DNA from: a virus
Lineage: Duplodnaviria; Caudoviricetes
Direction: 5' to 3' (one strand)
Length of the DNA stretch: 64,000 bases
Virus record (IMG/VR): IMGVR_UViG_3300025840_004398
In this document: one piece after another, positions 10,817-36,315 of the stretch
How the letters are laid out: the number at the start of each line of letters is the position of its first letter
How positions within the stretch are numbered: position 1 is the stretch's first letter
Notes under the pieces: model-generated
Told to the model about the DNA's origin: nothing
Databases searched by the model: none
Seen by the model: the letters and a program-made list of their open reading frames with translations, nothing else
Translations under genes and position numbers: made by a program

Positions 10817-10819
10817 GAA

Positions 10820-18267: not shown

Positions 18268-18268
18268 G

Positions 18269-18502
18269 ATGACAGAAGAACAATTCAAACAATTGATGGA
18301 GGTTCTAAACGATATACTCGAATCAACTCAGAATATTGAAGATGCAATCTACGATGCAAACTTCAAAGAACACAATGAGAAAGTAGAGTGGAATCTATGG
18401 GAAATCCATAACTTAGCAAAAATTAAATTTAAAGGTTCAGAAAATAGACCATCACGAGATGCAGAGAGAACGCAGGAATCGGAGGAAAGTTCAGAATCAT
18501 AA
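18269..18502 (+). CDS. Hypothetical acidic protein
   Basis: ORF-track frame 18257..18502; ATG 18269 directly follows the upstream stop. No recognisable motif. Confidence 0.45.
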   Translation: MTEEQFKQLMEVLNDILESTQNIEDAIYDANFKEHNEKVEWNLWEIHNLAKIKFKGSENRPSRDAERTQESEESSES

Positions 18503-19898
18503 ATTAGGTATTATAGTTCCATACAGAGATAGACCTCAACAACTAAAGAGGTTCGTCAAACATATGGGAGAATATCTAACTGATTTGGACTATCAAATAT
18601 TCATCATCGAACAATCAGATGGTAAGCCATTTAATCGTGGTAAACTTCTGAATATTGGATACAAATTCGCATGCGATAATGGATGTGATTATTTTGTATT
18701 TCATGATGTTGATATGTTACCTGAGGATGTAGATTATTCTTATTCAGATAAACCTTTACATTTAGCAACTCACTTACAAGAACACGATTACGAAACCACA
18801 TTCTTTGATTACTTTGGTGGAGTAACTATGTTCAACAAAGAAGATTTCGAATTGATAAACGGATTCTCCAACGAATATTGGGGTTGGGGATTCGAAGATG
18901 ATGACCTACTGATTAGATGTATTGAATCTGATTTAGAAATAGATAAAGAGTGTATTCAAAAAGAATATGATATTACTGAATATGAGTCTTTTAAATTCAA
19001 TGGTACAAGTTCATTTATAAAAATTAAATCGGATGATAGTAAATTATTAGAAGATAGTTTTACCTTATCTGTTCTCGTAAAACCAGAAAATATTTTACTC
19101 AATGAAAACAAAGAATATGATGAGTTTCCAATATTAGTAATACCTGGATATGACATTGGGTTCTTTTACGATTCATTTAGAAGATTTAGATGCCAGATTT
19201 ATGATAAAAATAAAAAACCATATTCTATAACATCAGATATTATAGGAGAATCTTGGTTACATTTAACGATGACGTATGAAGATAGAAAACTATCATTGTA
19301 TATTGACGGTAAACTATATAACACAATTATAACCGATGATGATTTAATAGAAATATCAAGTGATATTATTTTTGTAGGTACATCGAGTGATGTGAAAACA
19401 AATAATAATTTCTTTTATGGATTAATATCAAATGTTGAGGCTTACGAAATATCACTTGTAAAAGATGAGGTTTATGAAATATATAAAAATTCAAAATATC
19501 CTAAGATTAGAAATTTTGGAAAATTTTATGCATCTGAATACTTGGTAAATCATATTTTACCTGAAAATTCTAATGAAGAATATTGTATAGATTTATCTGG
19601 TAATGGTAAAGTAGAATTAAATGATGTTGGTATAATAAAATTAAAGAATAATCAAAAAACTTTTTTACCAAAGCCGTATCGTAGAAACTCAAGATTTAAA
19701 TCATTAGTTCATAAATCAAATTCTTCTGTTGGAAATAAATGGATTCATGGTGAAACACGAAAAAATCAATTAAAATATTACAACAAAATAAGACAACATG
19801 AAGTAGATTTTAGAATAGATGGACTGAATACATTGCGATATAAATTGGTAAAGGAAAAAGAAAATAAAAAAGTAAAACAAATATCAGTAGAGTTATGA
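18459..19898 (+). CDS. GT7 glycosyltransferase with LamG/ConA-like insert
   Basis: LGIIVPYRDR, PFNRGKLLN, FHDVDMLP, YFGGV, SNEYWGWGFEDDDL; LamG-like FTLSVLVKP...WLHLTMTY...LYIDG; then RFKSLVH...DGLNTLRY. Confidence 0.85.
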   Translation: MQRERRNRRKVQNHKLGIIVPYRDRPQQLKRFVKHMGEYLTDLDYQIFIIEQSDGKPFNRGKLLNIGYKFACDNGCDYFVFHDVDMLPEDVDYSYSDKPLHLATHLQEHDYETTFFDYFGGVTMFNKEDFELINGFSNEYWGWGFEDDDLLIRCIESDLEIDKECIQKEYDITEYESFKFNGTSSFIKIKSDDSKLLEDSFTLSVLVKPENILLNENKEYDEFPILVIPGYDIGFFYDSFRRFRCQIYDKNKKPYSITSDIIGESWLHLTMTYEDRKLSLYIDGKLYNTIITDDDLIEISSDIIFVGTSSDVKTNNNFFYGLISNVEAYEISLVKDEVYEIYKNSKYPKIRNFGKFYASEYLVNHILPENSNEEYCIDLSGNGKVELNDVGIIKLKNNQKTFLPKPYRRNSRFKSLVHKSNSSVGNKWIHGETRKNQLKYYNKIRQHEVDFRIDGLNTLRYKLVKEKENKKVKQISVEL

Positions 19899-20305
19899 GT
19901 GAAACACCAGAAATAGGAATAATTGCAGGTAACTTTGATGTTCTACATCCTGGTTATCTAAAGATGTTTCAAGAAATTGAAAATCATTGTGAAAAACTAT
20001 TTATATTATTACACGATGACCCAACCATTGAAAGACCACATAAGAAAAAACCAATTCTTTCGGTAAACGAAAGAAGAGAGATGTTAAAACAGTTTACATG
20101 GCACCACACTATACTTACTTATAATACAGAAGAAGAACTTCTGTTCTTAATTAAAAGTATAGACCCTGATATAAGATTCTTAGGAGATGATTATGTAGAT
20201 AAATCTTATACAGGTGATAATTTAGGAATACAAGTTCATTGGATAAATCGTTCACATGGTTGGAGTACCACAAAATTTAAACAAGCAATTGCAGATTCAA
20301 TATGA
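19895..20305 (+). CDS. Cytidylyltransferase (TagD/HldE-C-like HIGH family)
   Basis: GNFDVLHPGY, ERREML, GDDY, RSHGWSTTK. Confidence 0.8.
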   Translation: MSETPEIGIIAGNFDVLHPGYLKMFQEIENHCEKLFILLHDDPTIERPHKKKPILSVNERREMLKQFTWHHTILTYNTEEELLFLIKSIDPDIRFLGDDYVDKSYTGDNLGIQVHWINRSHGWSTTKFKQAIADSI

Positions 20306-21750
20306 AATTAGGAGTTTGTGTACCATATAGAAATAGAGAAGCACACTTAAAAGAGTTTGTACCAAGAGTTGGTAAATATCTTGAAGAACAAGGTATAGAA
20401 TATTGTATGTACTTTGGACATCAAGTTGATGACAAACTTTTTAACAGAGGAGCAATGAAAAACATTGCAGCTAAACACGCATTTGAAGATGGGTGTGATT
20501 ATATAGTTTGGCATGATATAGATATGATACCACAAAAAGATGGAGGTGCAGACTATTCATATCCAAAAGAAAATCCAATTCATATAGCTACAAACATTTC
20601 ACAAATGAATTACAAACTAAAGTATGAAGAATATTTTGGTGGTGCTGTTTTATTTACCAAGGAACAAGTTGAAAAAACCAATGGTTATTCTAATGATTAT
20701 TGGGATTGGGGAATGGAAGATGATGATTTGTTTTGGAGATGTGTATTGGAAGGATACGCCAACGATACTTACATGGATTTTACAGAAGAACCACAATCAT
20801 ATCTATCTTTCAATGGAACCAATTCGTATGTTCACATACCATGTACAAGACCATTAAGAAACTTAACTTCTCGTTCACACACCATTTCAGTTTTAGTTCG
20901 TGCTCACCAACAAGAAGAAAAAGTTCCAATTTGGTTAGTTGGTGACGAAGAAAGACAATTCTGTGAATATCCCATTCTTAGGAGACCTGGATTTGATTAC
21001 GGATTAAGTTATAATAATTCTAGAGCTTACACCTCCCAACTTTGGAACAACCAAAGAGAACATCTTTATCAATGGATGAAAAGATATGAAAATCAATGGA
21101 GTTGGGTAACACTTGTAGTAAACGACAATAATATTCATTTCTATATGAATGGTAAAGAATCAGACGCACGATGGGGTACTGGGACTCAATCACCTCTTCA
21201 TTTTGAAGGTTCTTTAAAAAGATATGGAAATGTTGACTATTATTTAGGAACAACAACATCTGTAAAGGAAGGAGATGTGTCAAAATGGTTCAAAGGAGAT
21301 ATTGCAGATGTTAGAATGTGGAATAGAGCTTTAACATCGGAAGAAGTTAAAGAAATTTCAAAAACCATTATAGACGATAGTTTAGTAATTCATTATGATT
21401 TTTCAGATGGAACCGCAAAGGATTTAAGTGGTAGAGAAAATCATGGAACTCAATATAATTGTGAAATTAATAGTGGAAGTATAAAATTACCACATACAAT
21501 CGTTCCCCATAGAAAACCCGGTAGATTAGAATGTTTAGACCATGAAGATGAGGGTTTGGTAGTTGACAAACAAGGTATTATGAAATGGGCTAAGGGTGAA
21601 ACTACTGCTAGAAACGAAAGAAGATTTGTTAAACAGATGCAGGCTGGTGAATGGGACTATAAGTCCGATGGAATAAATTCACTTAAATATAATTTAGTCA
21701 GTATAGAAGAAATAACAGATAAGGCTAAATTTATAAATGTTACTTTATGA
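20302..21750 (+). CDS. GT7 glycosyltransferase with LamG/ConA-like insert
   Basis: LGVCVPYRNR, FNRGAMKN, WHDIDMIP, YFGGAV, SNDYWDWGMEDDDL; LamG WSWVTLV...FYMNG...FKGDIADVRMWNRALT; then GRLECLDH...DGINSLKY. Confidence 0.85.
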   Translation: MKLGVCVPYRNREAHLKEFVPRVGKYLEEQGIEYCMYFGHQVDDKLFNRGAMKNIAAKHAFEDGCDYIVWHDIDMIPQKDGGADYSYPKENPIHIATNISQMNYKLKYEEYFGGAVLFTKEQVEKTNGYSNDYWDWGMEDDDLFWRCVLEGYANDTYMDFTEEPQSYLSFNGTNSYVHIPCTRPLRNLTSRSHTISVLVRAHQQEEKVPIWLVGDEERQFCEYPILRRPGFDYGLSYNNSRAYTSQLWNNQREHLYQWMKRYENQWSWVTLVVNDNNIHFYMNGKESDARWGTGTQSPLHFEGSLKRYGNVDYYLGTTTSVKEGDVSKWFKGDIADVRMWNRALTSEEVKEISKTIIDDSLVIHYDFSDGTAKDLSGRENHGTQYNCEINSGSIKLPHTIVPHRKPGRLECLDHEDEGLVVDKQGIMKWAKGETTARNERRFVKQMQAGEWDYKSDGINSLKYNLVSIEEITDKAKFINVTL

Positions 21751-23129
21751 GTACATTTCAAGATATAAAAAATAAACTTGATGGAGTTGGTTGTGGTTTT
21801 TGTTTAGCAAAATGGACACAAGTCACTATGCATTTACACAATGGATTAACACATTCCTGTCACCACCCATCACCTCATAAAATACCTTTAAGAGAGATAG
21901 AAAGAAATCCTACCGCCCTTCACAACACAAGATTTAAAAAATCAGCTAGAAGGGAAATGTTATCCAACGAAAGACCAAAGGAGTGTGATTATTGTTGGAA
22001 TGTGGAGGATAATTCGGAAAGATTTTCAGATAGGGTATTAAAATCTTCAGAACCCTGGTCAATTGTGGATTTTGAAAAAATTAAATCATCTTCTTTTAGA
22101 GACAACTTCAATCCAAGGTACGTTGAAGTTTCTTTTTCTAACACTTGTAATTTTAAGTGCTCATATTGTTCTCCTTTATTTTCATCAAAATGGATGGAAG
22201 AAGTAAAACAATTAGGACCATACCCCACAAGTGATAAATTCGGCAGACTTGATGTATTAAAAGAAGAAAACAAAATACCATATCTACAATCTGAACATAA
22301 CCCATATGTAGAAGCATTTTGGAAATGGTGGCCTAATTTATATCGTGATTTGCATACTTTTCGAATTACTGGTGGAGAACCACTTTTATCAAAAGACACT
22401 TGGAAAGTTTTGGATTATATTATAGAAGAACCAAATCCAAATAAAAAGTTAAATCTTTCAATAAATACCAACTTAGGAATACCTGATAATTTATTTAATA
22501 AATTTATAGAAAAAATAGATAAGATTATATCTGAAGATAGGGTAAATGAATTTATAGTTTATACTTCATGTGATACTTGGGGAGAACAGGCGGAATATAT
22601 ACGAAACGGATTGGAGTTTAATAGATTTTGGGATAATATAAACATAATATTAGAAAAACTTCCAAAAGTTACTGTTGTTATAATGAGTACATATAATATG
22701 TTTTCACCATTTGGGTATAATAAACTACTTGAGGAAGTATACAAATTAAAAAAAGAATATGCCAATGATGAAAGATATTGGAATCATTCCATAATTTTAG
22801 ATACCGCATATCTAAGATATCCAAAACATCAAACAGTACAACTTTTAGATGATACTCACAAAGAAATAATAAGAAGTAATGCTGAATACGCATATTACCA
22901 TTCCTCACCTGTATTTACAAAATCAGAATTGGGATTTACTGGAGTTGAAATAAATAAAATTAAAAGAATTTATGATTGGTCTATATCAGAAATAGATAAT
23001 GAAATTTTAAACAGAGAAAGAAACAACTTTGTAAAGTTTGTTGATGCTCATGATAAGAGAAGGGGAACTAATTTTTTAAAAACATTTCCTGAGTTGGAAG
23101 ATTTATACTATAAAATAAAAAACAAATGA
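21747..23129 (+). CDS. Radical SAM enzyme with N-terminal twitch-like Fe-S domain (subfamily A)
   Basis: FCLAKW...SCHHP...ECDYCW; CxxxCxxC NTCNFKCSYC; TGGEP; C-terminal RRGTNFLKTFPEL. Confidence 0.9.
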   Translation: MSTFQDIKNKLDGVGCGFCLAKWTQVTMHLHNGLTHSCHHPSPHKIPLREIERNPTALHNTRFKKSARREMLSNERPKECDYCWNVEDNSERFSDRVLKSSEPWSIVDFEKIKSSSFRDNFNPRYVEVSFSNTCNFKCSYCSPLFSSKWMEEVKQLGPYPTSDKFGRLDVLKEENKIPYLQSEHNPYVEAFWKWWPNLYRDLHTFRITGGEPLLSKDTWKVLDYIIEEPNPNKKLNLSINTNLGIPDNLFNKFIEKIDKIISEDRVNEFIVYTSCDTWGEQAEYIRNGLEFNRFWDNINIILEKLPKVTVVIMSTYNMFSPFGYNKLLEEVYKLKKEYANDERYWNHSIILDTAYLRYPKHQTVQLLDDTHKEIIRSNAEYAYYHSSPVFTKSELGFTGVEINKIKRIYDWSISEIDNEILNRERNNFVKFVDAHDKRRGTNFLKTFPELEDLYYKIKNK

Positions 23130-23809
23130 TTATAGAAAAAGAAAAACCATGGTTATTGTGGCCAAGTAAATCTTCTCATGGGATATCAAAAGGAGACATA
23201 CAAAATGTTTTAGAAGGTCATGATGACTTTACTTTTAGTATGAGAATAAAAGTATTATCTAAAGAACCAAATAAAAGAACGATATTTTCAAAGTTACCTA
23301 ATTATATGGGTATAGATGTTGAAAACGAAAATAATAATATTTTATTTATTTGTACAATAAGAAAAGGTGATGTAGTTGAACCAAAGTATATTTTTTTAAA
23401 TGACACCCTTGGTTGGGATTGGAATTTTATTTCTATAAAATATTCAAAAAAATATAATCTAATAGTTTTAGATGTAAATGGTTCTATTTTACATGAACTT
23501 CAATTAAAAGAAGATGAATCAATAGAATCTTTTGATGATTCTCATTTTATATTTGGAGCTGGTAATTTTCCTCACAATGGATTTAATTTAAATTATTCTG
23601 AGTTTGATGTTGATTTTTTATGTATATCAAAAGAATATTTAGAACAAGACGATATCGAAACATTATATAAGAGTGAATCAACAGATAATAAAAATGTAAT
23701 TGGTTTGTATAATTTTAGTAAAAAAACCGATTATCAAATTTTTGATTTAACAAACAATTATAATCTAATACACAGAATGTTAGATTCAACTTCATATTTA
23801 AAAGAATGA
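23126..23809 (+). CDS. Stand-alone LamG/ConA-like domain protein
   Basis: FTFSMRIK...WNFISIKY...LDVNG...FIFGAG pattern resembles the GT7 inserts; ATGA-coupled on both sides. Confidence 0.45.
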   Translation: MIIEKEKPWLLWPSKSSHGISKGDIQNVLEGHDDFTFSMRIKVLSKEPNKRTIFSKLPNYMGIDVENENNNILFICTIRKGDVVEPKYIFLNDTLGWDWNFISIKYSKKYNLIVLDVNGSILHELQLKEDESIESFDDSHFIFGAGNFPHNGFNLNYSEFDVDFLCISKEYLEQDDIETLYKSESTDNKNVIGLYNFSKKTDYQIFDLTNNYNLIHRMLDSTSYLKE

Positions 23810-25182
23810 AACACTACGAAAGTATAAAACATCAGTTAGATAGTGTATCTCCAAGTTTTTGTATAGCTAAGTGGGCTCAACTTACTTTGTATTTACAAAC
23901 GGGATACAACCATTCTTGTCACCACCCAACTCCACATAAAATTCCATTAGAAGAAGTTTTAGAAAATCCAAAGGCACTTCATAATACTCAGTTTAAAAAA
24001 GCTCAAATGAGAAAAATGTTGGAAGGTGAAAGACCTGCTGAATGTGAGTACTGTTGGAAAATAGAAGATTTGGGAAAAGGATATCTTAGTGATAGAGTCT
24101 ATAAATCAGCACATGAATTTTCACAAGAAAAGATAGAAGAAATTGTTACAAGAAAAACCGCTGATATTGAACCAAGTTATTTAGAAATTAGTTTTTCTAA
24201 CACCTGTAATCTTAAATGTGCGTATTGTTCACCTGATATATCTTCAACTTGGATGCAAGAAATAGAACAACATGGTGGTTATCCTACAACATCTAATTAT
24301 AATAATTTAGAGTGGTTTAAACAAAACCAAAAAATGCCATACAAACACTCGGAAGAAAATCCATATGTAGATGCCTTTTGGAAATGGTGGCCGGAACTAT
24401 CACCAAAATTACATACACTAAGGTTAACAGGTGGTGAACCACTTCTATCAAAAGATGTTTGGAAAATTATAGATAGTATTATAGAAAATCCAAATCCAAA
24501 GTTAGTTTTTTGTATAAACACAAACTTGTTAGTACCTGATAATTTAATTGATAAGTTAATTGAAAAATTAAATATACTTGATGGTAAATTAAAAGAGATA
24601 CAAATATTTTCTAGTGGTGAAGCAACAGGAAAATCAAATGAATACATTAGATTTGGAACTAATCATGAAAAGTGGAAGAAAAACTTTGAGAAAGTATTAT
24701 CTCAAACAAAAAATGTATTAGTTGCAAACATGACAACGGTAAACCTAACTAGTGTAAACACCTATTGTGATTTTATAAGGTATCTTTTAGATATGAGAAG
24801 TATTTATAACAAAGAAGTTACTTTTGATAAAGTACAATTTATGACCAACTATTTAAGATATCCTGAATTTTTGGCAATAACCTTATTAGATAATGAAACA
24901 AAAGATAAATTCAAATCAGACGTTGAAAAACTAATAGAAGAAAGAAAGTTTGGTAAATGGAAAGATACAGAATATGGGTATCTAACAAATGAACAAGTTG
25001 ACCAGTTGAATAGATTGATTGACCATATGTATAAAAATACATTTGAAGATGAAGAAAAGTTAAAAACTATTCGTAGAGATTTTTATTCATTTATTGTTGA
25101 ATACGACAAAAGAAGAAATACTAATTTTTTAGAAACTTTTCCTGAATTAGAAAAATTTTATAAGTTATGTCAAGAAGCTTAA
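23806..25182 (+). CDS. Radical SAM enzyme with N-terminal twitch-like domain (subfamily A)
   Basis: FCIAKW...SCHHP...ECEYCW; NTCNLKCAYC; TGGEP; RRNTNFLETFPEL. Confidence 0.9.
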   Translation: MKHYESIKHQLDSVSPSFCIAKWAQLTLYLQTGYNHSCHHPTPHKIPLEEVLENPKALHNTQFKKAQMRKMLEGERPAECEYCWKIEDLGKGYLSDRVYKSAHEFSQEKIEEIVTRKTADIEPSYLEISFSNTCNLKCAYCSPDISSTWMQEIEQHGGYPTTSNYNNLEWFKQNQKMPYKHSEENPYVDAFWKWWPELSPKLHTLRLTGGEPLLSKDVWKIIDSIIENPNPKLVFCINTNLLVPDNLIDKLIEKLNILDGKLKEIQIFSSGEATGKSNEYIRFGTNHEKWKKNFEKVLSQTKNVLVANMTTVNLTSVNTYCDFIRYLLDMRSIYNKEVTFDKVQFMTNYLRYPEFLAITLLDNETKDKFKSDVEKLIEERKFGKWKDTEYGYLTNEQVDQLNRLIDHMYKNTFEDEEKLKTIRRDFYSFIVEYDKRRNTNFLETFPELEKFYKLCQEA

Positions 25183-26507
25183 AAGAAACATCAGATATAA
25201 TAAATTCAATATCCCCATCCTTTTGTGCAGCAAAATGGTATAACGTATCCATATGGTTGGGTAATGGAAGAACCGCTTCTTGTCATCATCCACTTGCTCA
25301 TTATATTCCAAAAATGGAATTAGACAAAAACCCCTCAGCAGTTCATAATACTAAATTTAAAAAAGAAAGAAGAAAGGAAATGCTTGAGGGAGTTAGACCC
25401 GATGAGTGTTCTTATTGTTGGACTGCCGAAGATGCTGCAAAAAAGAATGGAGAAGAAATATTTTCGGATAGAGTATATCAATCAGATAGATACACAACAG
25501 AAGAGATACTTGCTATAAAAGATATACCATGGACACGAGATGTAATTCCGAAAACAGTCGAATTGGCATTTGATAACCTATGTAACTTGGCGTGTTCTTA
25601 TTGTAATGCAGAATTTTCATCAACATGGGCAAGAGATATTGGAACAAAAGGGCCATATGAAGGAATGATAACATCTGGTGGAAAAACTTTTGAAAATGAT
25701 GGTTCTCACGCAATGCCATTTGGGAATAAAAACGAAGGAAACACTTATGTTGAAAAATTCTTTGAATGGTTTCCTATGATTAGAAGGGGACTGCAAGAAT
25801 TAAGAGTATCTGGTGGTGAACCATCTCGTTCACCTTCATTTTGGAGACTATTGGACATTTGTGATAACGATAACTTCGATTTCGCAGTAAATTCAAATTT
25901 AATTATGGATGAAGTCAGACTACAAAAATTAATAGACTCATCCGATAAATTTAAATCATTCGATATATATACTTCTGCTGAATGTGGTGGTAAATTACAA
26001 GAATTTGTAAGAGATGGATTTGATTGGAAACTGTGGGAAGATAATATGTGGAAAGTTGCCAATTCTGGTAAAATAAATGGACTACATATTATGATGACCG
26101 TATCTGTTTTGAGTGTATGGACTATTCATGAATTCTTAAAAATGATTATAGAATGGAGAAAAAAAATAGGACATAAAGAAATATTTTATATGTCCGTTAA
26201 TATAGCTAGATTCCCATCATTTCAAAATGTTAATATAATCGAACAAAGTATAAAAAACGAATTGGCAGATAAAATAGAATCTGCTCTAAATGAATCGAGA
26301 GAGTGGATGCATGAATGGGAACAAAATCACTATGAAAGATTGATTGTATATTTAAGAAACGTAGTTCAGTCATATGAAGATAAAGATACAATGGAAAATA
26401 AAAGAAGTGATTTTAAAAACTTTATACAACAATATTCTAAAAGAAGAAACAAACCACTTGATGAATATTTACCAGAAGAAACATTAACTTGGTTAAATAA
26501 TATCTAA
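25167..26507 (+). CDS. Radical SAM enzyme with N-terminal twitch-like domain (subfamily A)
   Basis: FCAAKW...SCHHP...ECSYCW; NLCNLACSYC; SGGEP. Confidence 0.9.
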   Translation: MSRSLKETSDIINSISPSFCAAKWYNVSIWLGNGRTASCHHPLAHYIPKMELDKNPSAVHNTKFKKERRKEMLEGVRPDECSYCWTAEDAAKKNGEEIFSDRVYQSDRYTTEEILAIKDIPWTRDVIPKTVELAFDNLCNLACSYCNAEFSSTWARDIGTKGPYEGMITSGGKTFENDGSHAMPFGNKNEGNTYVEKFFEWFPMIRRGLQELRVSGGEPSRSPSFWRLLDICDNDNFDFAVNSNLIMDEVRLQKLIDSSDKFKSFDIYTSAECGGKLQEFVRDGFDWKLWEDNMWKVANSGKINGLHIMMTVSVLSVWTIHEFLKMIIEWRKKIGHKEIFYMSVNIARFPSFQNVNIIEQSIKNELADKIESALNESREWMHEWEQNHYERLIVYLRNVVQSYEDKDTMENKRSDFKNFIQQYSKRRNKPLDEYLPEETLTWLNNI

Positions 26508-26509
26508 CT

Positions 26510-27805
26510 ATGCAAAGAAAAGAAGAAAAACCTGGAGATAAAATATCACCTACATTTTGTATTTTACCTTGGATACATTTAAACACATGGCCCAATGGTA
26601 ACGTATATCCTTGTTGTCTTACTGATTGGAGAGAAGATATCGGCAACATGAAAGATAATACTCTTGAAGAGTTATGGAATGGTGATATCATGAAGGAAAT
26701 CCGAAGGTTTATGTTGGAAGGTAAAAAACATCATAGTTGTAGAAAATGTTTTCAACAAGAAGATTATGGATTGGATTCTACAAGAGAATCTTCCAATAGA
26801 CACTATGAACATCATATAGACACAATCACAAACAACACCACACCAGACGGATACAATAATGATTTTAAATTACTATATTGGGATTTCAGATTTTCTAATT
26901 TATGTAACTTTAAATGTAGAATGTGTGGTTCATTTCTTTCATCAAAATGGTATGAAGATGAAGTTAAAATATTCGGAGGGTCTGTATTACCTCAGGCAAT
27001 CATAAATGTTGATGATTATTCAAAAAAAGGAATTAAGTTTTACTTAGACAAGTTTATTGATGAGGTAGAAGAAATTTATTTTGCAGGAGGAGAACCTCTT
27101 TTGATGGATGAACATTATTATATTTTAGAAGAACTTACTAAAAAGAAAAATTTCGATGTAAGACTTAGATACAACACAAACTTAGGATTTTTAAAATTTA
27201 AAAAATGGGATAATTTAGAGCTTTGGAAACCATTTAAAGAAAGAAGTGATTTAAATGTAAATATTTTTGCATCAATTGATGCCTATGGACCAAGAGCGGA
27301 ATACTCAAGAAAAGGAACAAAATGGCCAACGATAGAAAATAATATAAAAAGATTAATTGAAGCCGGATTTAATTTTCATATTAGTTGTACTACAAATATA
27401 TTTAACGTATTTCATGTTCCTGATTTGGTAGATGAAATGATTCGAATTGGAGTTCCATATTATTCAATACAGTTAAATAATGTATTAACGAATCCAAATT
27501 ATTATCACATTAATATACTACCTAAAGAATTAAAAGATAAAGTTACTGAAAAATATAACAAACACTTGGATTCTATGGAATCTCATATTAGGGATGAATT
27601 TATTCCAAAATATGAAAGTATATTTAATTTTATGAATGAAGAGGTTGATGGTGATGTAGAAGAAATAAGAGTTGCTTTTAAAGAATTAACTGTAAAATTA
27701 GACAAGGGTAGAGAAGAAAACTTTGAAGAAGTTTTTCCAGAACTAAAAGAATGGTTTAATTCTATTAGAAAAGACGAAGATGAAACATGGAAAAAAATAT
27801 TATGA
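26510..27805 (+). CDS. Radical SAM enzyme with N-terminal twitch-like domain (subfamily B)
   Basis: CILPWIHL...PCC...SCRKC; NLCNFKCRMC; AGGEP; RYNTN; FPEL. Confidence 0.9.
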   Translation: MQRKEEKPGDKISPTFCILPWIHLNTWPNGNVYPCCLTDWREDIGNMKDNTLEELWNGDIMKEIRRFMLEGKKHHSCRKCFQQEDYGLDSTRESSNRHYEHHIDTITNNTTPDGYNNDFKLLYWDFRFSNLCNFKCRMCGSFLSSKWYEDEVKIFGGSVLPQAIINVDDYSKKGIKFYLDKFIDEVEEIYFAGGEPLLMDEHYYILEELTKKKNFDVRLRYNTNLGFLKFKKWDNLELWKPFKERSDLNVNIFASIDAYGPRAEYSRKGTKWPTIENNIKRLIEAGFNFHISCTTNIFNVFHVPDLVDEMIRIGVPYYSIQLNNVLTNPNYYHINILPKELKDKVTEKYNKHLDSMESHIRDEFIPKYESIFNFMNEEVDGDVEEIRVAFKELTVKLDKGREENFEEVFPELKEWFNSIRKDEDETWKKIL

Positions 27806-29028
27806 TAGAAAAAAAGTACATATGTGACTTTCCATGGACTCAGTTATATAACACACCATCTGGTACCGTAACTCCATGTTGTGTATTTGGAGAACCAATA
27901 AAAAAGGATGATGGGACTCCATTTCTTTTACAAAAAGACTCTATTCAAGAAATATTTCAAAGTAATTATTTAAAAAATTTAAGAGAGTCATTTAACAGGG
28001 GTGAAAAACCAAATCATTGTGATTTTTGTTGGAAACAAGAAAACTTGGGATATGAAAGTAGGAGAATACAAAACAATCAGTTTCATAAAGACATGAATAT
28101 TGAAATTGATTACAACACTCATCCTGAATATCCAATAGAATATGAAGTAATATTATCAAACTCATGTAATTTAAAATGCAGAAGTTGTAATTCAATTTTA
28201 AGTACACAGTGGTTAAAAGAACAGAAGAAATTTACAAAGGATGAGTTAGAAATATTAGACATGCCCCCAATAGATTTATCTAATATCCAAGTGGGATATA
28301 AAGATTCAAAGTATATGACAGATATTTCCGAATGGGCTCCTCATGTTCGTAAAATTCAAACACTTGGTGGTGAACCTTTATATGGGGATACATGGAAATA
28401 TGTAATTGATTATTTGATTGAAAATGGCCACTCTAAACAAATATCATTAAGTATATCAACCAACGGCACTTTGTATGATGAGGAGTTTATAAAAAGATTG
28501 TGTGATAACTTTGAAAGTATAACCATCGGACTTAGTATAGATGGTCAAGGTCAAATATTCGAATTTCTAAGAAAAAACGGAAAATGGAATGAAGTTGAAG
28601 AAAATATTATAAATTATCAAACAAAGTTTTCAGATTATAAAAATTATGAACACTATTTTAGATTTACTGTTTCATGGATTAACGCTTTATTTATGCCTGA
28701 CTTTGAAAAATGGGTAAAAAATACAAATAGATTTTCTCCAACAAATTATGGAATTTTGTTTGAACCACATCATATGGCTTTATGGAATATTCCTACATTT
28801 TTTAAACAAAAAATAAAAGAAAAATTGGAATCTACTGAGTTCAAAGGAAACGAAAATAATATAAAATCTTTAATAGAATATATGTTTAGTAAATCACCAA
28901 CCGATTCTAGTATAAAAAATAGTTTTATAAAATTTAAAATTATTGATAAGTATAGAAATGAGAGCACATTGGATATTATAAAAAATATTGATTCTGAATT
29001 ATATAATTTTTACACAAGGATTACTTAA
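27802..29028 (+). CDS. Radical SAM enzyme with N-terminal twitch-like domain (subfamily B)
   Basis: CDFPW...PCC...CDFCW; NSCNLKCRSC; LGGEP; STNG. Start placed at the ATGA overlap (track start 27787). Confidence 0.88.
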   Translation: MIEKKYICDFPWTQLYNTPSGTVTPCCVFGEPIKKDDGTPFLLQKDSIQEIFQSNYLKNLRESFNRGEKPNHCDFCWKQENLGYESRRIQNNQFHKDMNIEIDYNTHPEYPIEYEVILSNSCNLKCRSCNSILSTQWLKEQKKFTKDELEILDMPPIDLSNIQVGYKDSKYMTDISEWAPHVRKIQTLGGEPLYGDTWKYVIDYLIENGHSKQISLSISTNGTLYDEEFIKRLCDNFESITIGLSIDGQGQIFEFLRKNGKWNEVEENIINYQTKFSDYKNYEHYFRFTVSWINALFMPDFEKWVKNTNRFSPTNYGILFEPHHMALWNIPTFFKQKIKEKLESTEFKGNENNIKSLIEYMFSKSPTDSSIKNSFIKFKIIDKYRNESTLDIIKNIDSELYNFYTRIT

Positions 29029-30294
29029 ATGACACCAAAAAAAGAAAGATTTATATGTGATTTGCCATGGACACACCTAAGTGTTCATCCACATGGTAAT
29101 GCTTCTATTTGTTGTGTTGCTGACCACTCACACCCACAATCAACTGCTGCAGATAAAAACGAAAATGGTGAGTATGTTCATATTCATAAAATCACAAATG
29201 GAATTCCAAAAATTATAAATTCTGATACATATAAAGACATACGAAAGGCAATGATTGAAGGAGAACGACCTCCTGCTTGTTCTACTTGTTGGAAAGTTGA
29301 AGATGCTGGTGGTAGGTCTAAGAGAATTAGAGATTCGTATATTTTTCCCGATGTAGATAAAATAACAAAACCAGATGGTAGTATAGATGTAGACTTATCT
29401 AATATAGAAGTTCGTCTTGGTAACTATTGTAATTTAAAATGTAGAAGTTGTAATGCAGAATCATCAACAAGTTGGATTGATGATTACTATAAACTAAGAA
29501 ATAAAGTTCCATTACCAAGTGGATATGATAGACTTAAAAATTCAGAGCACGTTACATATGATTGGGTTGAAGATGAAAAGTTTTATGATGACTTAATAAA
29601 AAACTCACCAAACATTGAACAACTTCATATTAGTGGAGGGGAACCATTTTTAGTACCAAAACATTTTTATTTGTTAGACAAATTGATTGAAGATGGTTTG
29701 GCTGAAAATATAAAAATATTTTATATTACTAATGCTAATTATAACTTTGATAAACTAAGGCCAGCTTTGTATAAATTAACAAAATTCAAAGAGGTATATA
29801 TATCTTTTTCAGTAGATGATGTTGGGGATAGAAATACATACATAAGAAGTCTTAGTAATTGGAAATTAACAATAGATAATATTAAAAAGTTTGTAGATGA
29901 GTACCCCACATTTTGGTATACTGTTACTCAAACTTTAAATGCATTTAATTTTTTATATTTTGAGGAATTAACTCAATTTCTTGTAAAAGAAGGGTTGTAT
30001 AAATTTGATGGAAATGGCCATATAAAAAATATTATAACAAATCATGTTCATTCACCTGAATACCAAAATGCAACAGTACTTCCATTGGATGTAAGAAGAA
30101 GTAAAATAGACTCTGTAAAAGGATTAGTGGCTCCTCATTATTTTGAAGATATTCATGGAAGATATTATGATGCTAAGTCAAATAATCAAATGGAATTATT
30201 TAAGAAAGTTACAGATGAGGTAGATAAGGTAAGACGAGAATCCATATCCGAAATATTTCCAAAACTATATAAAGAAATTACAAATATATTATGA
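29029..30294 (+). CDS. Radical SAM enzyme with N-terminal twitch-like domain (subfamily B)
   Basis: CDLPWTHL...ICC...ACSTCW; NYCNLKCRSC; SGGEP. Confidence 0.9.
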   Translation: MTPKKERFICDLPWTHLSVHPHGNASICCVADHSHPQSTAADKNENGEYVHIHKITNGIPKIINSDTYKDIRKAMIEGERPPACSTCWKVEDAGGRSKRIRDSYIFPDVDKITKPDGSIDVDLSNIEVRLGNYCNLKCRSCNAESSTSWIDDYYKLRNKVPLPSGYDRLKNSEHVTYDWVEDEKFYDDLIKNSPNIEQLHISGGEPFLVPKHFYLLDKLIEDGLAENIKIFYITNANYNFDKLRPALYKLTKFKEVYISFSVDDVGDRNTYIRSLSNWKLTIDNIKKFVDEYPTFWYTVTQTLNAFNFLYFEELTQFLVKEGLYKFDGNGHIKNIITNHVHSPEYQNATVLPLDVRRSKIDSVKGLVAPHYFEDIHGRYYDAKSNNQMELFKKVTDEVDKVRRESISEIFPKLYKEITNIL

Positions 30295-31520
30295 AACCAA
30301 CTAAAAGCGTAAGTTGTGTCCATGCTAAAAATGGATTAAGAGTTACAAACGATGGTTTTGTAATGCCTTGTTGTTATTATGACTATAAACATAGATTTAA
30401 AGACCGAAACGGAGACTACATAAAAACCGATGTTCATAGTATTAAAGATATGATGGAATCTCCTGACAGAAGGGACTTAATTAATTCTTTAGAAAATGGA
30501 ATAAAACATGAAGGTTGTAAAAGATGTTGGGTTGATGAAGATGTAAAGGGAGATAGTAAAAGATTAAGAGACTTAGAAACATTGGGTATGTTTTCTAAAG
30601 ATAACAATCAAGCTAAGTTCATAGAATTAAATCTTGGTATTACTTGTAATTTGGCTTGTAGAATGTGTAATGTTGGTGCATCAATTAAATGGATGAATGA
30701 GCATAGATTAGTATATGACACACCTGACCACTGGAAAGATGATGATAATTATAAAAAAGAAGTAAAGACTTTTTATAAAAGTTATGAGTACGATTCTATT
30801 TTTTGGGAAGAACTGCCAAAAATATTACCAGATGTAAAAACAATAGATATGTATGGTGGAGAACCAATGTTAATGAAAAAACAATGGGAGGTTTTACAGA
30901 TAGCGGTTGAAAAAGGATATTCAGAAAACATATCATTGCATTTCAATACAAATGGAACCATATATAATGATGCATATGTTGAAATACTAAAGAATTTTGG
31001 CCATGTTACATTTAGTTTTAGTATAGATGGTATTGGTAAAAGATTTGAATATATTAGACATCACGGTTCATGGGATGATGTAGATACTAAAGTTAGAAAA
31101 TGGATATCTCTTACAAAAGAAAATAAAAATTTTGAAATAGATTTGGCATATACCGTAACTAATTTAAATATTGGATTTATAGATGAAGTTGCAACATGGT
31201 GTTTTGCTAATAATGTAAGAATGTATTTAATAAACGTATCTGAACCAGAGTATTATTCTCCATACAATTTGCCAGTTGGTGCAAAAAATATGATTACTGA
31301 AAAAATGAATAAGTTTATTTCAAACAATAGATTTTTATCAAAAGAATTAATAAATGACATAAACGGCTCGGTAAATTTAATGAATTCTCAAAACTATAAT
31401 TTAGAAGAGTGGAGTAAATTTATAAAAGCAACTCAAATATTAGACAAATCTAGAAATCAAGATTTTATGAAAGCTTTCCCTGAGTTGGGGAAATATATAA
31501 ACACAAATTTATTTTTATGA
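30291..31520 (+). CDS. Radical SAM enzyme with N-terminal twitch-like domain (subfamily B)
   Basis: SCVHA...PCC...GCKRCW; ITCNLACRMC; YGGEP; FNTNG; FPEL. Confidence 0.9.
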   Translation: MKPTKSVSCVHAKNGLRVTNDGFVMPCCYYDYKHRFKDRNGDYIKTDVHSIKDMMESPDRRDLINSLENGIKHEGCKRCWVDEDVKGDSKRLRDLETLGMFSKDNNQAKFIELNLGITCNLACRMCNVGASIKWMNEHRLVYDTPDHWKDDDNYKKEVKTFYKSYEYDSIFWEELPKILPDVKTIDMYGGEPMLMKKQWEVLQIAVEKGYSENISLHFNTNGTIYNDAYVEILKNFGHVTFSFSIDGIGKRFEYIRHHGSWDDVDTKVRKWISLTKENKNFEIDLAYTVTNLNIGFIDEVATWCFANNVRMYLINVSEPEYYSPYNLPVGAKNMITEKMNKFISNNRFLSKELINDINGSVNLMNSQNYNLEEWSKFIKATQILDKSRNQDFMKAFPELGKYINTNLFL

Positions 31521-32497
31521 ACAAAATACTCATTACAGGAGGAGCAGGTTACTTAGGTTCAATAATTACAGAAACACTTTTAGAAGGATGGAGAGAAGTT
31601 ACTGTATTAGATAACTTGATGCACAACCAAACATCAGTATCTATCTTTTCACATCAAAAAAACTTTAAGTTTGTTTATGGTGATGTAAGAGATAAAGAAT
31701 TACTAAAAGAATTAGTATTAGAACATGATGTGATTATTCCACTTGCAGCAATCGTTGGATTTCCTGCTTGTGAAAGAGATAAAGAATTAGCAACTCAGAT
31801 AAATTATGAGCACGTCAAGTTTGTATGTGAGTTAGCAAAAGAACATAATAAAAAGGTGGTTTATCCGAACACTAATAGTGGATACGGGATAGGAGAGAGT
31901 GGTGTTTGTACGGAGGAAAGTCCGCTAAACCCCATTTCCCATTATGGGAAAACCAAGGTAGAGGCAGAAAAAGAGGTACTTGGGATAGGAGGTATCTCTT
32001 TACGCCTTGCTACTGTGTTTGGAACATCACCAAGAATGAGAATGGACTTGTTAGTAAACGAATTTGTTTACAAAGCACTAACTGATAAGTACATTACACT
32101 TTTTGAGAGAAAGTTTGTACGAAACTTCATTCATATCAGAGATGTTGCATTGGTATTTAGAAAAATGATAAACCAATATGACCAATGGACTAATAATGGT
32201 AAATTTGGTAGAGTATTTAATGTAGGTTTATCTTCAGCAAATCTAACCAAACAAGAATTATGTGAAGCAATCAAAGAACAGATACCTTCATTTGAGATTT
32301 TCCACAATGATAATTACGAGGACCCTGATAAACGAGATTATGTAGTATCAAATGAGTTACTTGAAAGTTGTGGGTGGAAACCAAGATACACTTTAGAAGA
32401 AGGTATTGAAGAATTGATTAAATGTTACACAATTCTAATTAAAGATTTAAGTTCAAAGTATAGAAATGATTTTCCATTAGGTTATGGCATTAAATAG
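31517..32497 (+). CDS. NAD-dependent epimerase/dehydratase (extended SDR)
   Basis: ILITGGAGYLG, LAAIVG, intact catalytic YGKTK, LRLATVFG, DKRDY. Confidence 0.9.
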   Translation: MNKILITGGAGYLGSIITETLLEGWREVTVLDNLMHNQTSVSIFSHQKNFKFVYGDVRDKELLKELVLEHDVIIPLAAIVGFPACERDKELATQINYEHVKFVCELAKEHNKKVVYPNTNSGYGIGESGVCTEESPLNPISHYGKTKVEAEKEVLGIGGISLRLATVFGTSPRMRMDLLVNEFVYKALTDKYITLFERKFVRNFIHIRDVALVFRKMINQYDQWTNNGKFGRVFNVGLSSANLTKQELCEAIKEQIPSFEIFHNDNYEDPDKRDYVVSNELLESCGWKPRYTLEEGIEELIKCYTILIKDLSSKYRNDFPLGYGIK

Positions 32498-33068
32498 AAG
32501 TATATTTTACAAAGAACGAGATTGGAACGATTTCCATTATTACAATGGTTCGGTACTCAACGAGGTAAAGGTTGTACAACCATCTACTTACTATGAGTTC
32601 AGAGGTTCTATATCTACCACTTACCATTCAGATTACTACGATAGGTTACTACCTGCGAACGAACGTAACGAAGGTTTACAATTCAAACATGATAGGTACT
32701 CAAAATCAAAATATGGAGTTCTTAGAGGATTACATTATGATGAAAAAACTTGGAAGTTGGTAAGTTGTATTCATGGTAAAATTTATTTAGTAGTATTAGA
32801 TGTAAGACCTTACTCAACCACTTATGGTAAATGGGAATCTTTTATTCTTTCACCTGAAACAGGAACACAAGTTCTTATTCCACCAAACTTTGCAAATGGA
32901 CACTTTGTAATGGAAGATGATTCAATCTTCTTTTATAAGATGGCATATCAAGGTGAGTATAATGATGAGAACAAGCAAAAAACGATTGTATTTAACAATC
33001 CTAAGTTTAATATAGATTGGCCAGTACAATCACCAATCTTATCAAAACGAGATAGATATGAACATTAA
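32484..33068 (+). CDS. rmlC: dTDP-4-dehydrorhamnose 3,5-epimerase-like cupin
   Basis: EFRG, GVLRGLHY, KLVSCIHG, LDVR, IPPNFANGH, C-terminal IDWP...ILSKRD. Confidence 0.85.
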   Translation: MALNRSIFYKERDWNDFHYYNGSVLNEVKVVQPSTYYEFRGSISTTYHSDYYDRLLPANERNEGLQFKHDRYSKSKYGVLRGLHYDEKTWKLVSCIHGKIYLVVLDVRPYSTTYGKWESFILSPETGTQVLIPPNFANGHFVMEDDSIFFYKMAYQGEYNDENKQKTIVFNNPKFNIDWPVQSPILSKRDRYEH

Positions 33069-33696
33069 AAATTTAGATTACCACGAAGATAGATGGACTG
33101 AAGGTAATTGGTCTGTACAAGATTTAATAGATTTTGAAGATGATATCATAAAACATTGGGAAGGTGGAGAAATCACAGGACCAATTCACCTATCAAATGG
33201 TAACGAAAAAGAACTAATTAGAATATTCAATAAAATTGGTATTGACGATTGGGTATTCTCAACTTGGAGGTCTCATTATCACGCACTTTTACATGGTATG
33301 GAACCTTCGGTATTAAAACAAAAAATTTTAGATGGTAAATCCATAACAATTGTAGATAAAGATTCTAAGTTTTATGCTTCTGCAATCGTAACTGGTACTT
33401 TACCAATTGCATTAGGAGTTGCAAAAGCAATCAAACTCCAAAAATCAGATAATAAAGTTTGGGTATTCTTAGGAGATATGGCATTTGAAAGTGGAATCTT
33501 TTATGAAGTTCACAAATATGCAAGAAACTATGATTTACCTTTGTATTTCGTGGTAGAAGATAATGGTGTAAGTACAAATACACCTACATTAGATACATGG
33601 AATGGTATTCAAAGAGAAATACCAGAAGATGTGATATATTATAAGTATGAATCAAAATATCCCCACTATGGGACAGGAAAATGGGTAGTATTTTAG
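33058..33696 (+). CDS. ThDP-dependent enzyme, E1-alpha-like (diphosphate-binding) subunit
   Basis: GPIHLSNGNE, STWRSH, GDMAFESG...EDN ThDP motif; about 210 aa, shorter than a PDH E1 alpha. Confidence 0.8.
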   Translation: MNIKNLDYHEDRWTEGNWSVQDLIDFEDDIIKHWEGGEITGPIHLSNGNEKELIRIFNKIGIDDWVFSTWRSHYHALLHGMEPSVLKQKILDGKSITIVDKDSKFYASAIVTGTLPIALGVAKAIKLQKSDNKVWVFLGDMAFESGIFYEVHKYARNYDLPLYFVVEDNGVSTNTPTLDTWNGIQREIPEDVIYYKYESKYPHYGTGKWVVF

Positions 33697-36294: not shown

Positions 36295-36315
36295 TACTGA
36301 TAAGGTATATTGAAT

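What the first reader, a model, noticed from the sequence alone, without database searches (positions are those of the whole stretch)
21747..31520. Seven near-tandem radical SAM enzymes with N-terminal twitch-like clusters, in two subfamilies
Seen: seven of eight consecutive ORFs have CxxxCxxC and GGEP plus an N-terminal Cys set (C...C(C)...CxxC). Genes 1-3 share CxAKW/SCHHP/HNT motifs and genes 4-7 mostly share CxxPW/CC; most end in a (R)xxxF...FP(E/K)L-like motif. Established: SPASM/twitch domains are normally C-terminal, and twitch enzymes include sugar or cyclitol modifiers such as BtrN as well as peptide maturases. Inference: an expanded, domain-permuted family performing successive radical steps on NDP-sugars, glycans or virion peptides. 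This is an unusual Fe-S/SAM investment for a phage, and I know of no assigned substrate.
Basis: partly seen in the sequence, partly recalled or inferred. Interest (0 to 1): 0.82.

Follow-up and report, generated by a model that had tools for sequence, protein, structure and literature searches.

The report
Seven-gene N-twitch radical SAM battery
An uncultured T4-like phage carries seven old, intact copies of a catalogued but never-tested iron-sulfur "radical SAM" enzyme family inside a sugar-building operon next to its tail-fibre genes, which points to radical tailoring of a sugar coat; the chemistry itself is still unknown.

Summary
Seven of eight consecutive genes (21747-31520, + strand) are intact radical SAM enzymes with a four-cysteine twitch domain at the N-terminus.

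They are not a new architecture. All seven score 275-405 bits against NCBIfam NF033640 "N_Twi_rSAM" (cut-off 170). I found no characterised member and no paper on the family.

- **Size:** 6,429 clusters at 50% identity reach E<=1e-30.
- **Distribution:** common in uncultured viral contigs, heavily expanded in Bdellovibrionota, rare in cultured phages.
- **Arrays:** tandem arrays are the rule (96 of 158 loci). This one is the fullest viral set I saw.
- **Age:** each copy has closer orthologues elsewhere (38-64% identity) than paralogues here (27-44%), and the gene order recurs.

New here:
- The eighth ORF is a LamG-like module. It is also inserted in the three upstream GT7 glycosyltransferases and is fused to orthologues of gene 1 elsewhere.
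- Other family members are fused to glycosyltransferases.
- 75 of 80 viral loci carry glycosyltransferase or nucleotide-sugar genes beside the array.

Best reading: a soluble glycan-tailoring battery. The substrate, the reaction and the glycan's destination are unproven.

This scan had already found the same family on other DNA (e1-5354926, e1-4704702).

The parts
21747..23129 (+). rSAM gene 1 (460 aa), N_Twi_rSAM clade 1. This is the conserved core copy that follows the glycosyltransferase genes in related phages.
   Evidence: NF033640 344.7 bits. Clade of 67 members in 61 loci. The upstream neighbour of clade-1 members is GT7-LamG in 32 cases and the GT-A protein c1 in 13. Orthologues up to 64% identical.
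23126..23809 (+).
   Evidence: No Pfam, NCBIfam or PHROG hit. hhalign of its family (A5): 95.6% probability to the LamG insert of the GT7 at 20302. 97.6-97.9% to N-terminal extensions fused to clade-1 rSAMs (L104, L096, P0141).
23806..25182 (+). rSAM gene 2 (458 aa), clade 2.
   Evidence: NF033640 335.2 bits. Orthologues at 61% in L140, L143 and L144.
25167..26507 (+). rSAM gene 3 (446 aa), clade 3.
   Evidence: NF033640 275.7 bits. Orthologue at 60% in L110.
26510..27805 (+). rSAM gene 4 (431 aa), clade 4. This is the copy that was modelled.
   Evidence: NF033640 404.9 bits; Pfam SPASM at residues 17-80. AF2 model pLDDT 92.8. Best solved matches: BlsE Z 13.0, SkfB 12.5, CteB 12.1.
27787..29028 (+). 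rSAM gene 5 (413 aa), a rare lineage.
   Evidence: NF033640 274.7 bits. Exclusive clade of only 3 members; best orthologue 39% (L093).
29029..30294 (+). rSAM gene 6 (421 aa), clade 6.
   Evidence: NF033640 328.5 bits. Clade of 88 members, 34 cellular loci.
30291..31520 (+). rSAM gene 7 (409 aa), clade 7.
   Evidence: NF033640 285.8 bits. Best orthologue 38% (L110).
16798..21750 (+). Three GT7 (beta-4-galactosyltransferase-like) glycosyltransferases, each with an inserted LamG domain (16798-18267, 18459-19898, 20302-21750), and a 136-aa cytidylyltransferase (19895-20305).
   Evidence: Pfam Glyco_transf_7N/7C, Laminin_G_3 and CTP_transf_like. No tblastn match in 50,697 phage records.
15192..16801 (+). 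Methyltransferase (Methyltransf_24) and a weak GT2-like protein. These are the first two genes of the conserved cassette.
   Evidence: the GT2 hit is below Pfam's cut-off. Cassette c7-c4-c3-c3-rSAM recurs in 24 loci.
31517..36137 (+). Nucleotide-sugar enzymes: three SDR epimerase/dehydratases, an RmlC-type 3,5-epimerase, and a split thiamine-diphosphate enzyme (33058-33696 and 35589-36137).
   Evidence: Pfam hits. Translationally coupled to the rSAM genes; all proteins are predicted soluble.
5252..14023 (+). Two large fibre-like proteins directly upstream of the cluster.
   Evidence: Peptidase_S74 (endosialidase chaperone) at the C-terminus of the 1854-aa protein.

Best explanation
The seven genes are seven anciently separated members of the N_Twi_rSAM family (NCBIfam NF033640).

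Architecture. Each has an N-terminal twitch domain whose four cysteines should hold a fully ligated auxiliary [4Fe-4S] cluster, then a CxxxCxxC/GGEP radical SAM barrel, then a family-specific C-terminal helical bundle carrying the DKxR...FPEL motif.

Setting. They lie in one tightly coupled operon of soluble proteins (18459-36137) that follows the tail-fibre genes. The operon also encodes three GT7-LamG glycosyltransferases, a cytidylyltransferase and nucleotide-sugar enzymes.

Proposed role. They act as a battery of regiospecific sugar-tailoring enzymes in a phage-encoded cytoplasmic glycosylation pathway. A LamG-like module, which is inserted in the glycosyltransferases, free at 23126-23809, and fused to gene-1 orthologues elsewhere, would bring transferases and radical enzymes to the same acceptor. 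That acceptor is most likely a glycan on a phage protein such as a fibre.

Shown: family membership, intact motifs, homology to the BtrN twitch, conserved synteny and order, and fusions to LamG and to glycosyltransferases.

Inferred: that the substrate is a sugar or glycan (about 0.65 on its own); that the glycan ends on the virion (about 0.45 for the whole statement); and the chemistry. The chemistry I favour is H-abstraction from a sugar carbon followed by one-electron transfer to the auxiliary cluster, as in the dehydrogenase BtrN. This would give a keto-sugar that the neighbouring reductases, epimerases or the thiamine enzyme could process. I put that at about 0.25.
For: - Family: 275-405 bits against a cut-off of 170 for all seven.
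- Intact clusters: invariant Cys in all seven and in at least 360 of 365 relatives.
- Twitch homology: Pfam SPASM on the N-terminus. BtrN residues 169-253 align with C169, C188, C232 and C235 in register.
- Fold: AF2 pLDDT 92.8; nearest solved enzymes are the twitch sugar-nucleoside decarboxylase BlsE (Z 13.0), then SkfB, CteB, MoaA and anSME.
- Old lineages in a recurring order R1/R2-R3-R4-R6/R7.
- Context: 71 of 80 viral loci have a glycosyltransferase within 6 kb, and 75 of 80 have a glycosyltransferase or a nucleotide-sugar enzyme. Recurrent neighbours are SDR epimerases, carbamoyltransferase, UDP-glucose dehydrogenase, DegT aminotransferase, RmlC and a TPP enzyme. No RiPP-type enzyme recurred among the viral neighbours.
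- The alternative upstream cassette also consists of glycosyltransferases. One is GT8 (glycogenin, E 2e-8). The other is a GT-A protein whose best fold match is the PBCV-1 capsid-glycosylating transferase. This cassette is also present in the cultured Ralstonia phage RsoM2USA.
- Fusions: LamG-rSAM, GT-rSAM (P0162), rSAM-GT2 (P0208), and 26 of 149 top representatives joining two or three rSAM units.
- All 22 cluster proteins lack membrane segments, and the genes overlap.
Against: - No member of the family has been assayed, so every functional step rests on context.
- The 80 viral loci were the best matches to gene 1, so the neighbour counts are biased towards clade-1 cassettes.
- In Bdellovibrionota many arrays have no recognised glycosyltransferase nearby (26 of 78 cellular loci). 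One conserved Bacteriovoracaceae locus also holds an M16 peptidase and a SPASM-type rSAM, which looks peptide-like.
- Some members carry TPR repeats, a protein-binding module.
- LamG domains bind proteins as well as sugars.
- The invariant arginines (R92, R267 and R401, numbered on gene 4 in alignment A2) could equally fit a free nucleotide-sugar substrate.
- The fold matches are tied within one Z unit between sugar-modifying and peptide-modifying enzymes.
Confidence: 0.45

Rival explanations
1. Same sugar-tailoring chemistry, but the product is not on the virion. The operon would remodel the host's envelope glycan (O-chain or capsule) during infection, for example to block superinfection. This is what was proposed for the glycosyltransferases in the pelagimyophage host recognition cluster.
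For: [quoted passage not shown] In Bacteriovoracaceae the family sits beside GT1 genes and an ABC-2 exporter typical of surface polysaccharides.
Against: None of the 22 window proteins has a membrane segment. There is no polyprenyl-phosphate transferase, flippase or polymerase. The cassette follows fibre genes in both synteny types. The best fold match of the cassette-B transferase is a capsid-glycosylating enzyme.
Confidence: 0.2
2. The enzymes are protein or peptide maturases. They would install crosslinks, epimerise residues or otherwise modify tail-fibre or other virion proteins, or a RiPP-like peptide. The LamG or TPR modules would serve as the recognition element.
For: The nearest solved folds include SkfB, CteB, anSME and SuiB. 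Weak NCBIfam hits go to many SPASM peptide maturases. TPR fusions occur. The Bacteriovoracaceae locus holds an M16 peptidase plus a SPASM rSAM. Earlier notes on this genome report a cysteine-rich peptide system elsewhere in the phage (unchecked).
Against: There is no small precursor ORF in the tightly packed operon. No RRE, peptidase or RiPP exporter is present in the window cluster or among the recurrent viral neighbours. Only one auxiliary cluster site is present, not the seven-Cys SPASM pair. Direct fusions are to glycosyltransferases.
Confidence: 0.15
3. The operon builds and tailors a glycan on the phage DNA (base hypermodification), and the rSAMs edit DNA-linked sugars or prepare the base.
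For: Phage glycosyltransferases are known to hypermodify DNA with varied glycans (Pyle et al. 2024, as cited in PMC12619734). All the enzymes are soluble.
Against: The cluster sits in the late structural block after the fibre genes. It is not with replication or nucleotide-metabolism genes, and the window holds no base hydroxymethylase or kinase. Cellular members sit beside exporters.
Confidence: 0.07

Closest known systems
NCBIfam NF033640, 'twitch domain-containing radical SAM protein' (N_Twi_rSAM)
   Same: All seven proteins match nearly the full 398-position model at 275-405 bits (cut-off 170). They share the N-terminal four-Cys twitch, CxxxCxxC and GGEP.
   Different: Nothing differs at the family level. 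The family is a bioinformatic definition only: I found no paper, no solved structure and no assayed member.
BtrN (2-deoxy-scyllo-inosamine dehydrogenase of butirosin biosynthesis; PDB 4M7S/4M7T), the founding twitch enzyme
   Same: The twitch domain is homologous, with the four auxiliary-cluster cysteines in register. Both have one fully Cys-ligated auxiliary cluster, and BtrN works on a sugar-like substrate. BtrN is a radical SAM dehydrogenase with a single auxiliary cluster (PMC10337720).
   Different: The twitch is C-terminal in BtrN and N-terminal here. Whole-protein similarity is marginal (E 0.0067-0.018). These proteins are about 170 residues longer and have a unique C-terminal helical bundle. 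The substrate is unknown.
BlsE (blasticidin S cytosylglucuronic acid decarboxylase; PDB 7VOB)
   Same: Best structural match of the gene-4 model (Z 13.0, rmsd 3.0 A over 209 residues). It is a radical SAM enzyme acting on a nucleoside-linked sugar.
   Different: Only 18% identity. The match covers the barrel only (model residues 96-380). It is tied within one Z unit with the peptide maturases SkfB and CteB.
Radical SAM gene cassettes in the host recognition cluster of pelagimyophages (Zaragoza-Solas et al. 2020, PMC7029224)
   Same: T4-like aquatic phages with a hypervariable block of fibre genes, glycosyltransferases (GT8), LPS-type sugar genes and radical SAM cassettes that come and go between close relatives.
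   Different: The paper mentions the cassettes in one sentence and does not identify the family, architecture, arrays or LamG modules. This phage's capsid protein is closest to an uncultured 484-kb phage, Microcystis phage Mel-JY01 and Flavobacterium phage immuto, not to a named pelagiphage.
Virus-encoded virion glycosylation: PBCV-1 A64R, and the mycobacteriophage capsid and tail-tube glycans (Freeman et al. 2023, as cited in PMC12619734)
   Same: Soluble, virus-encoded glycosyltransferases acting in the cytoplasm on structural proteins. The cassette-B GT-A protein has A64R as its best fold match.
   Different: No radical SAM enzyme is part of those systems as far as I know (my recollection). 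Virion glycosylation is not shown here.

Membership tests
NCBIfam NF033640 N_Twi_rSAM | Whole-protein score above the curated cut-off (170 bits) over the full-length model | tested here: met
   344.7, 335.2, 275.7, 404.9, 274.7, 328.5 and 285.8 bits. Model positions 1-4 to 393-398 are covered.
NCBIfam NF033640 N_Twi_rSAM | Twitch (half-SPASM) Fe-S domain N-terminal to the radical SAM core | tested here: met
   Invariant C19/C38/C80/C83 lie before the CxxxCxxC at 134-141. Pfam SPASM at residues about 10-88 of genes 4-7. Alignment to the BtrN twitch.
Radical SAM superfamily (PF04055) | CxxxCxxC cluster motif and GGE SAM-binding motif intact | tested here: met
   Invariant in all seven. PF04055 E-values run from 5e-6 to 5e-12; genes 1 and 3 fall just under Pfam's gathering score.
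BtrN-type twitch dehydrogenases | Single auxiliary [4Fe-4S] cluster ligated by four Cys of a twitch domain | tested here: met
   The four Cys align with BtrN C169/C188/C232/C235. This is sequence evidence only; cluster content was not measured.
BtrN-type twitch dehydrogenases | Twitch domain C-terminal to the barrel; two-electron oxidation of a secondary alcohol | tested here: not met
   The domain order is reversed. The reaction cannot be tested with these tools. So these proteins may work like BtrN but are not members of its family.
SPASM peptide maturases (anSME, SkfB, CteB, PqqE and similar) | C-terminal seven-Cys SPASM domain with two auxiliary clusters, usually an RRE, and a nearby precursor peptide | tested here: not met
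   Only four conserved N-terminal Cys. All NCBIfam maturase models score 15-38 bits against cut-offs of 250-650. No small ORF lies in the operon.
   20.8-43.5 bits, limited to the CxxxCxxC and GGE stretches.
Viperin-like NTP dehydratases | Score above the NF038283 cut-off (180 bits) | tested here: not met
   16-35 bits. The fold match covers the barrel only, Z 10.8.

The most novel reading that the evidence does not exclude
N_Twi_rSAM enzymes are radical editors of already assembled glycans. A shared LamG-like docking module would hold glycosyltransferases and up to seven regiospecific radical SAM enzymes on one protein-linked glycan of the phage fibre or virion. Sugars would then be oxidised, epimerised or rearranged after transfer. 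This would be a kind of post-glycosylation radical chemistry not described for any virus or cell, and Bdellovibrionota would use the same toolkit on their own surface.
Probability: 0.2. Interest if true: 0.85.

Novelty: new member of a known kind. Interest (0 to 1): 0.55.

Why it matters
The family is very large: 6,429 clusters at 50% identity reach E<=1e-30. It is absent from 14 model genomes and has no assigned reaction, so any substrate assignment would annotate thousands of genes at once.

This window offers the fullest viral set, with seven lineages in the conserved order. It also supplies concrete candidate substrates and partners: the products of the co-transcribed GT7-LamG transferases, the nucleotide-sugar enzymes, and a free LamG module.

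The fusions to LamG and to glycosyltransferases turn the vague guess of 'sugars or peptides' into a testable design.

If the glycan sits on fibres, it would bear on how aquatic phages vary or mask their host-recognition apparatus.

Tried and rejected
- **Near-identity DNA search** of 21000-32000 against 50,697 phage records: no match.
- **Whole-genome search of the window's own genome:** none is held.
- **Literature searches** for the family name, its accession, 'N-terminal twitch', Bdellovibrio plus SPASM, and twitch plus polysaccharide plus epimerase: nothing on this family.
- **Profile search of solved structures:** only weak barrel matches; no structure of the family.
- **Foldseek against PDB** for the gene-4 model: TM 0.26-0.35 normalised to the model, no close relative.
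- **Complex prediction** of gene 1 with the 227-aa LamG-like protein: 'no answer' (score 0.00, result). This is evidence neither for nor against binding.
- **Atlas look-up** of a 102-aa cassette-B neighbour: only viral hypothetical proteins and a weak tail-assembly lead.
- **PHROG scans** of the unnamed neighbours: empty.
- **Plain HMM search** with the LamG-like family against fused proteins missed what hhalign found.
- **N-terminal extensions** of L106 and P0162 are not LamG-like; P0162's is a glycosyltransferase.
- **The 840-bp gap** in the seven-gene Bdellovibrionales array L017 holds no convincing precursor peptide.
- **Recent local duplication rejected:** paralogues are 27-44% identical, whereas orthologues in other loci reach 38-64%.
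- **Not done:** I could not read model coordinates, so the distance between the two clusters and the spatial equivalence of the N-terminal twitch to BtrN's were not measured.


Full report
**What is there.** Between 21747 and 31520 the + strand carries eight back-to-back ORFs, with overlaps or gaps of -19 to +2 nt. Seven of them (409-460 aa) align over their whole length. They share invariant C19, C38, C80 and C83 in the first 85 residues, CxxxCxxC at 134-141, GGEP at 209-212, and a further set of invariant polar residues. None of the seven has lost a cluster ligand.

**Family.** All seven match NCBIfam NF033640, 'twitch domain-containing radical SAM protein' (N_Twi_rSAM), at 275-405 bits against a curated cut-off of 170, covering almost the whole model.
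- Every characterised family scores far below its cut-off. MoaA reaches 20-43 bits of the 284 required, viperin 16-35 of 180, and the peptide maturases 15-38 of 250-650.
- Pfam places a SPASM-type Fe-S domain at the N-terminus of genes 4-7.
- The N-terminal 115 residues of gene 4 align to residues 169-253 of BtrN. This puts BtrN's four auxiliary-cluster cysteines opposite the four invariant cysteines here. The E-value is marginal, but the register is exact.

So the 'permuted twitch' is real, but it is the defining feature of a family that is already catalogued. I found no paper and no solved structure for it.

**Structure.** An AlphaFold model of gene 4, built on 48 sequences, is confident (pLDDT 92.8). 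It has three parts: a small N-terminal domain, a radical SAM barrel, and a C-terminal helical bundle that carries the conserved DKxR...FPEL motif. Against solved structures only the barrel matches. The best hits are BlsE (Z 13.0), SkfB (12.5), CteB (12.1), then MoaA and anSME (11.8). These are the SPASM/twitch branch of the superfamily. Sugar-modifying and peptide-modifying enzymes are tied, so the fold does not tell the substrate.

**How common.**
- An exhaustive profile search of 1.84 billion representatives finds 6,429 clusters at E<=1e-30.
- Among 50,697 deposited phage genomes only 19 have a match. Most are weak, KVP40-like Vibrio phages. The one good relative is Ralstonia jumbo phage RsoM2USA, at 41.6% identity to gene 1.
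- In IMG/VR, 543 of the first 599 candidate stretches encode a relative.
- In species-representative genomes the hits are dominated by Bdellovibrionota. Five such genomes hold 6-19 matches each, including at least 16 full copies in one 1.9-Mb genome. None of 14 model genomes has a member.
- Tandem arrays are the norm. Of 158 fetched loci, 96 have two or more copies within 10 kb, and the largest has eight.
- 26 of the 149 best representatives even join two or three units in one polypeptide.

Seven copies is therefore at the top of the range but is not unique. The scan had already met the family twice on other DNA (e1-5354926, e1-4704702).

**Age and order of the copies.** Each window gene is closer to genes in other loci (38-64% identity) than to its best paralogue here (27-44%).
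- In a tree of 365 members each gene has its own clade, and most clades include both viral and cellular members.
- Genes 1-3 and genes 4-7 form the two major branches, with support 0.93 and 0.97.
- The clades recur in the same order in other phages: R1 or R2, then R3, R4, then R6/R7. Examples are L110, L093, L143, L141 and L094.
- The window holds the union of all seven clades.

This is a conserved multi-enzyme set, not a local burst of duplication.

**Surroundings.** The window is a T4-like phage, with terminase, portal and gp23-type capsid genes. The nearest capsid relatives are an uncultured 484-kb phage, Microcystis phage Mel-JY01 and Flavobacterium phage immuto. The contig is at least 200 kb.

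The array follows two large fibre-like proteins. It belongs to a cluster containing:
- a methyltransferase and a weak GT2-like protein;
- three GT7 glycosyltransferases, each with a LamG domain inserted;
- a cytidylyltransferase;
- the rSAM genes;
- three SDR epimerase/dehydratases and an RmlC-type epimerase;
- a split thiamine-diphosphate enzyme.

Genes 18459-36137 overlap one another, and none of the 22 proteins has a membrane segment.

**Conserved cassettes.** In the related loci two upstream contexts dominate.
- **Cassette A** (24 loci, including the window): methyltransferase, GT2-like, two or three GT7-LamG genes, clade-1 rSAM, then a small protein of about 200-260 aa.
- **Cassette B** (33 loci, plus cultured phage RsoM2USA): a fibre-like protein, two GT8 genes (glycogenin, E 2e-8), a 300-aa protein, and the rSAM. 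The 300-aa protein folds as a GT-A transferase, and its best match is the PBCV-1 capsid-glycosylating enzyme.

Of the 80 viral loci, 71 have a glycosyltransferase within 6 kb of the array, and 75 have a glycosyltransferase or a nucleotide-sugar enzyme. Other recurrent neighbours are a carbamoyltransferase, UDP-glucose dehydrogenase, a DegT-type aminotransferase and further radical SAM types. These loci were the best matches to gene 1, so the counts are biased towards clade 1.

**The eighth ORF and the fusions.** The 227-aa protein at 23126-23809 has no hit in any family library. Its family, however, is homologous to two things:
- the LamG insert of the GT7 at 20302 (hhalign probability 95.6%);
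- N-terminal extensions fused to clade-1 rSAMs in L104, L096 and P0141 (97.6-97.9%).

The same jelly-roll module therefore appears in three forms: inside the transferases, free beside gene 1, and fused to gene-1 orthologues. Other family members are fused directly to glycosyltransferases. P0162 is GT-rSAM and P0208 is rSAM-GT2. Some cellular members carry TPR repeats.

**Interpretation.** Gene context, conserved order and three kinds of fusion all tie the family to glycosyltransfer. I read the seven genes as a battery of regiospecific sugar-tailoring enzymes in a soluble, phage-encoded glycosylation pathway, with the LamG module as a shared docking device.
- The four-Cys auxiliary site is fully ligated, as in the dehydrogenase BtrN (PMC10337720). 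This favours an electron-transfer role over substrate binding. It suggests oxidation to a keto-sugar, or epimerisation. This is inference only.
- The position beside fibre genes, the lack of any membrane component, and the A64R-like transferase favour a glycan on a phage protein.
- The pelagimyophage literature instead favours host O-chain modification for similar clusters, and mentions radical SAM cassettes there only in passing (PMC7029224).
- A peptide-maturase role is not excluded. The Bacteriovoracaceae locus with an M16 peptidase and a SPASM rSAM and the TPR fusions point that way. However, the window holds no precursor ORF and no RiPP accessory genes.
- A DNA-glycan role is the least likely, given the position of the cluster.

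**Verdict.** The architecture is already catalogued, and the family is common in uncultured phages. What remains open, and worth testing, is the chemistry. This window is a good starting point because it carries all seven lineages together with their likely partners.

Noticed in passing
window 47746-47889 (+): 47-aa ORF with three LGGSK(T/K)H-type repeats in the head-gene block. It lies 16 kb from the rSAM array, and nothing links the two.
   Followed up: partly
window 16798-21750: The three GT7 (beta-4-galactosyltransferase-like) enzymes have a LamG domain inserted between the catalytic core and the C-terminal DGLN(S/T)L(K/R)Y segment. tblastn with one of them (18459-19898) finds nothing in 50,697 deposited phage genomes.
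   Followed up: partly
window 33058-33696 and 35589-36137: A thiamine-diphosphate enzyme is split into an E1-alpha-like half and a transketolase-pyrimidine-binding-like half, separated by two SDR genes. I recall this layout from branched-chain deoxysugar pathways; I did not check it.
   Followed up: no
window 10820-14023: A 1067-aa fibre-like protein has a weak intein-splicing-type hit at its extreme C-terminus (residues 1030-1061, below Pfam's cut-off). Earlier notes report Hint domains elsewhere in this phage.
   Followed up: no
window 36310-39669: A 1119-aa protein combines an N-terminal cytidylyltransferase domain with DUF5661. It lies just after the sugar operon and before the terminase.
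   Followed up: no
window 14062-36137, protein C-termini: Nine of 22 cluster proteins end in Ile or Leu (for example KKIL, NIL, VEL, VTL, LFL). This may relate to the C-terminal tag reported for this genome in e1-5363851. I ran no statistical test.
   Followed up: partly
G001:C1:792000-803000 and 1068000-1093000 (Bdellovibrionales chromosome behind L017): A 1.9-Mb predatory-bacterium genome holds at least 16 full N_Twi_rSAM genes in two large arrays. The phylum is the main cellular home of the family.
   Followed up: partly
L004, L007, L008, L009 (Bacteriovoracaceae): A conserved locus runs: M16 peptidase, SPASM-type rSAM, clade-1-like N_Twi_rSAM, 770-aa GT1, an unknown 320-aa protein, and a divergent ABC-2 exporter plus a second GT1. 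It could be a surface glycan or a glycosylated peptide system.
   Followed up: partly
P0121, P0122, P0186 and 23 other representatives: Natural polypeptides join two or three full N_Twi_rSAM units, some linked by TPR repeats.
   Followed up: partly
L159 (Ralstonia phage RsoM2USA, 217327-221946 of MG752970.1): A cultured jumbo phage carries the GT8-GT8-GT-A-rSAM cassette, with every gene annotated as hypothetical. It is a tractable system for testing the family.
   Followed up: partly
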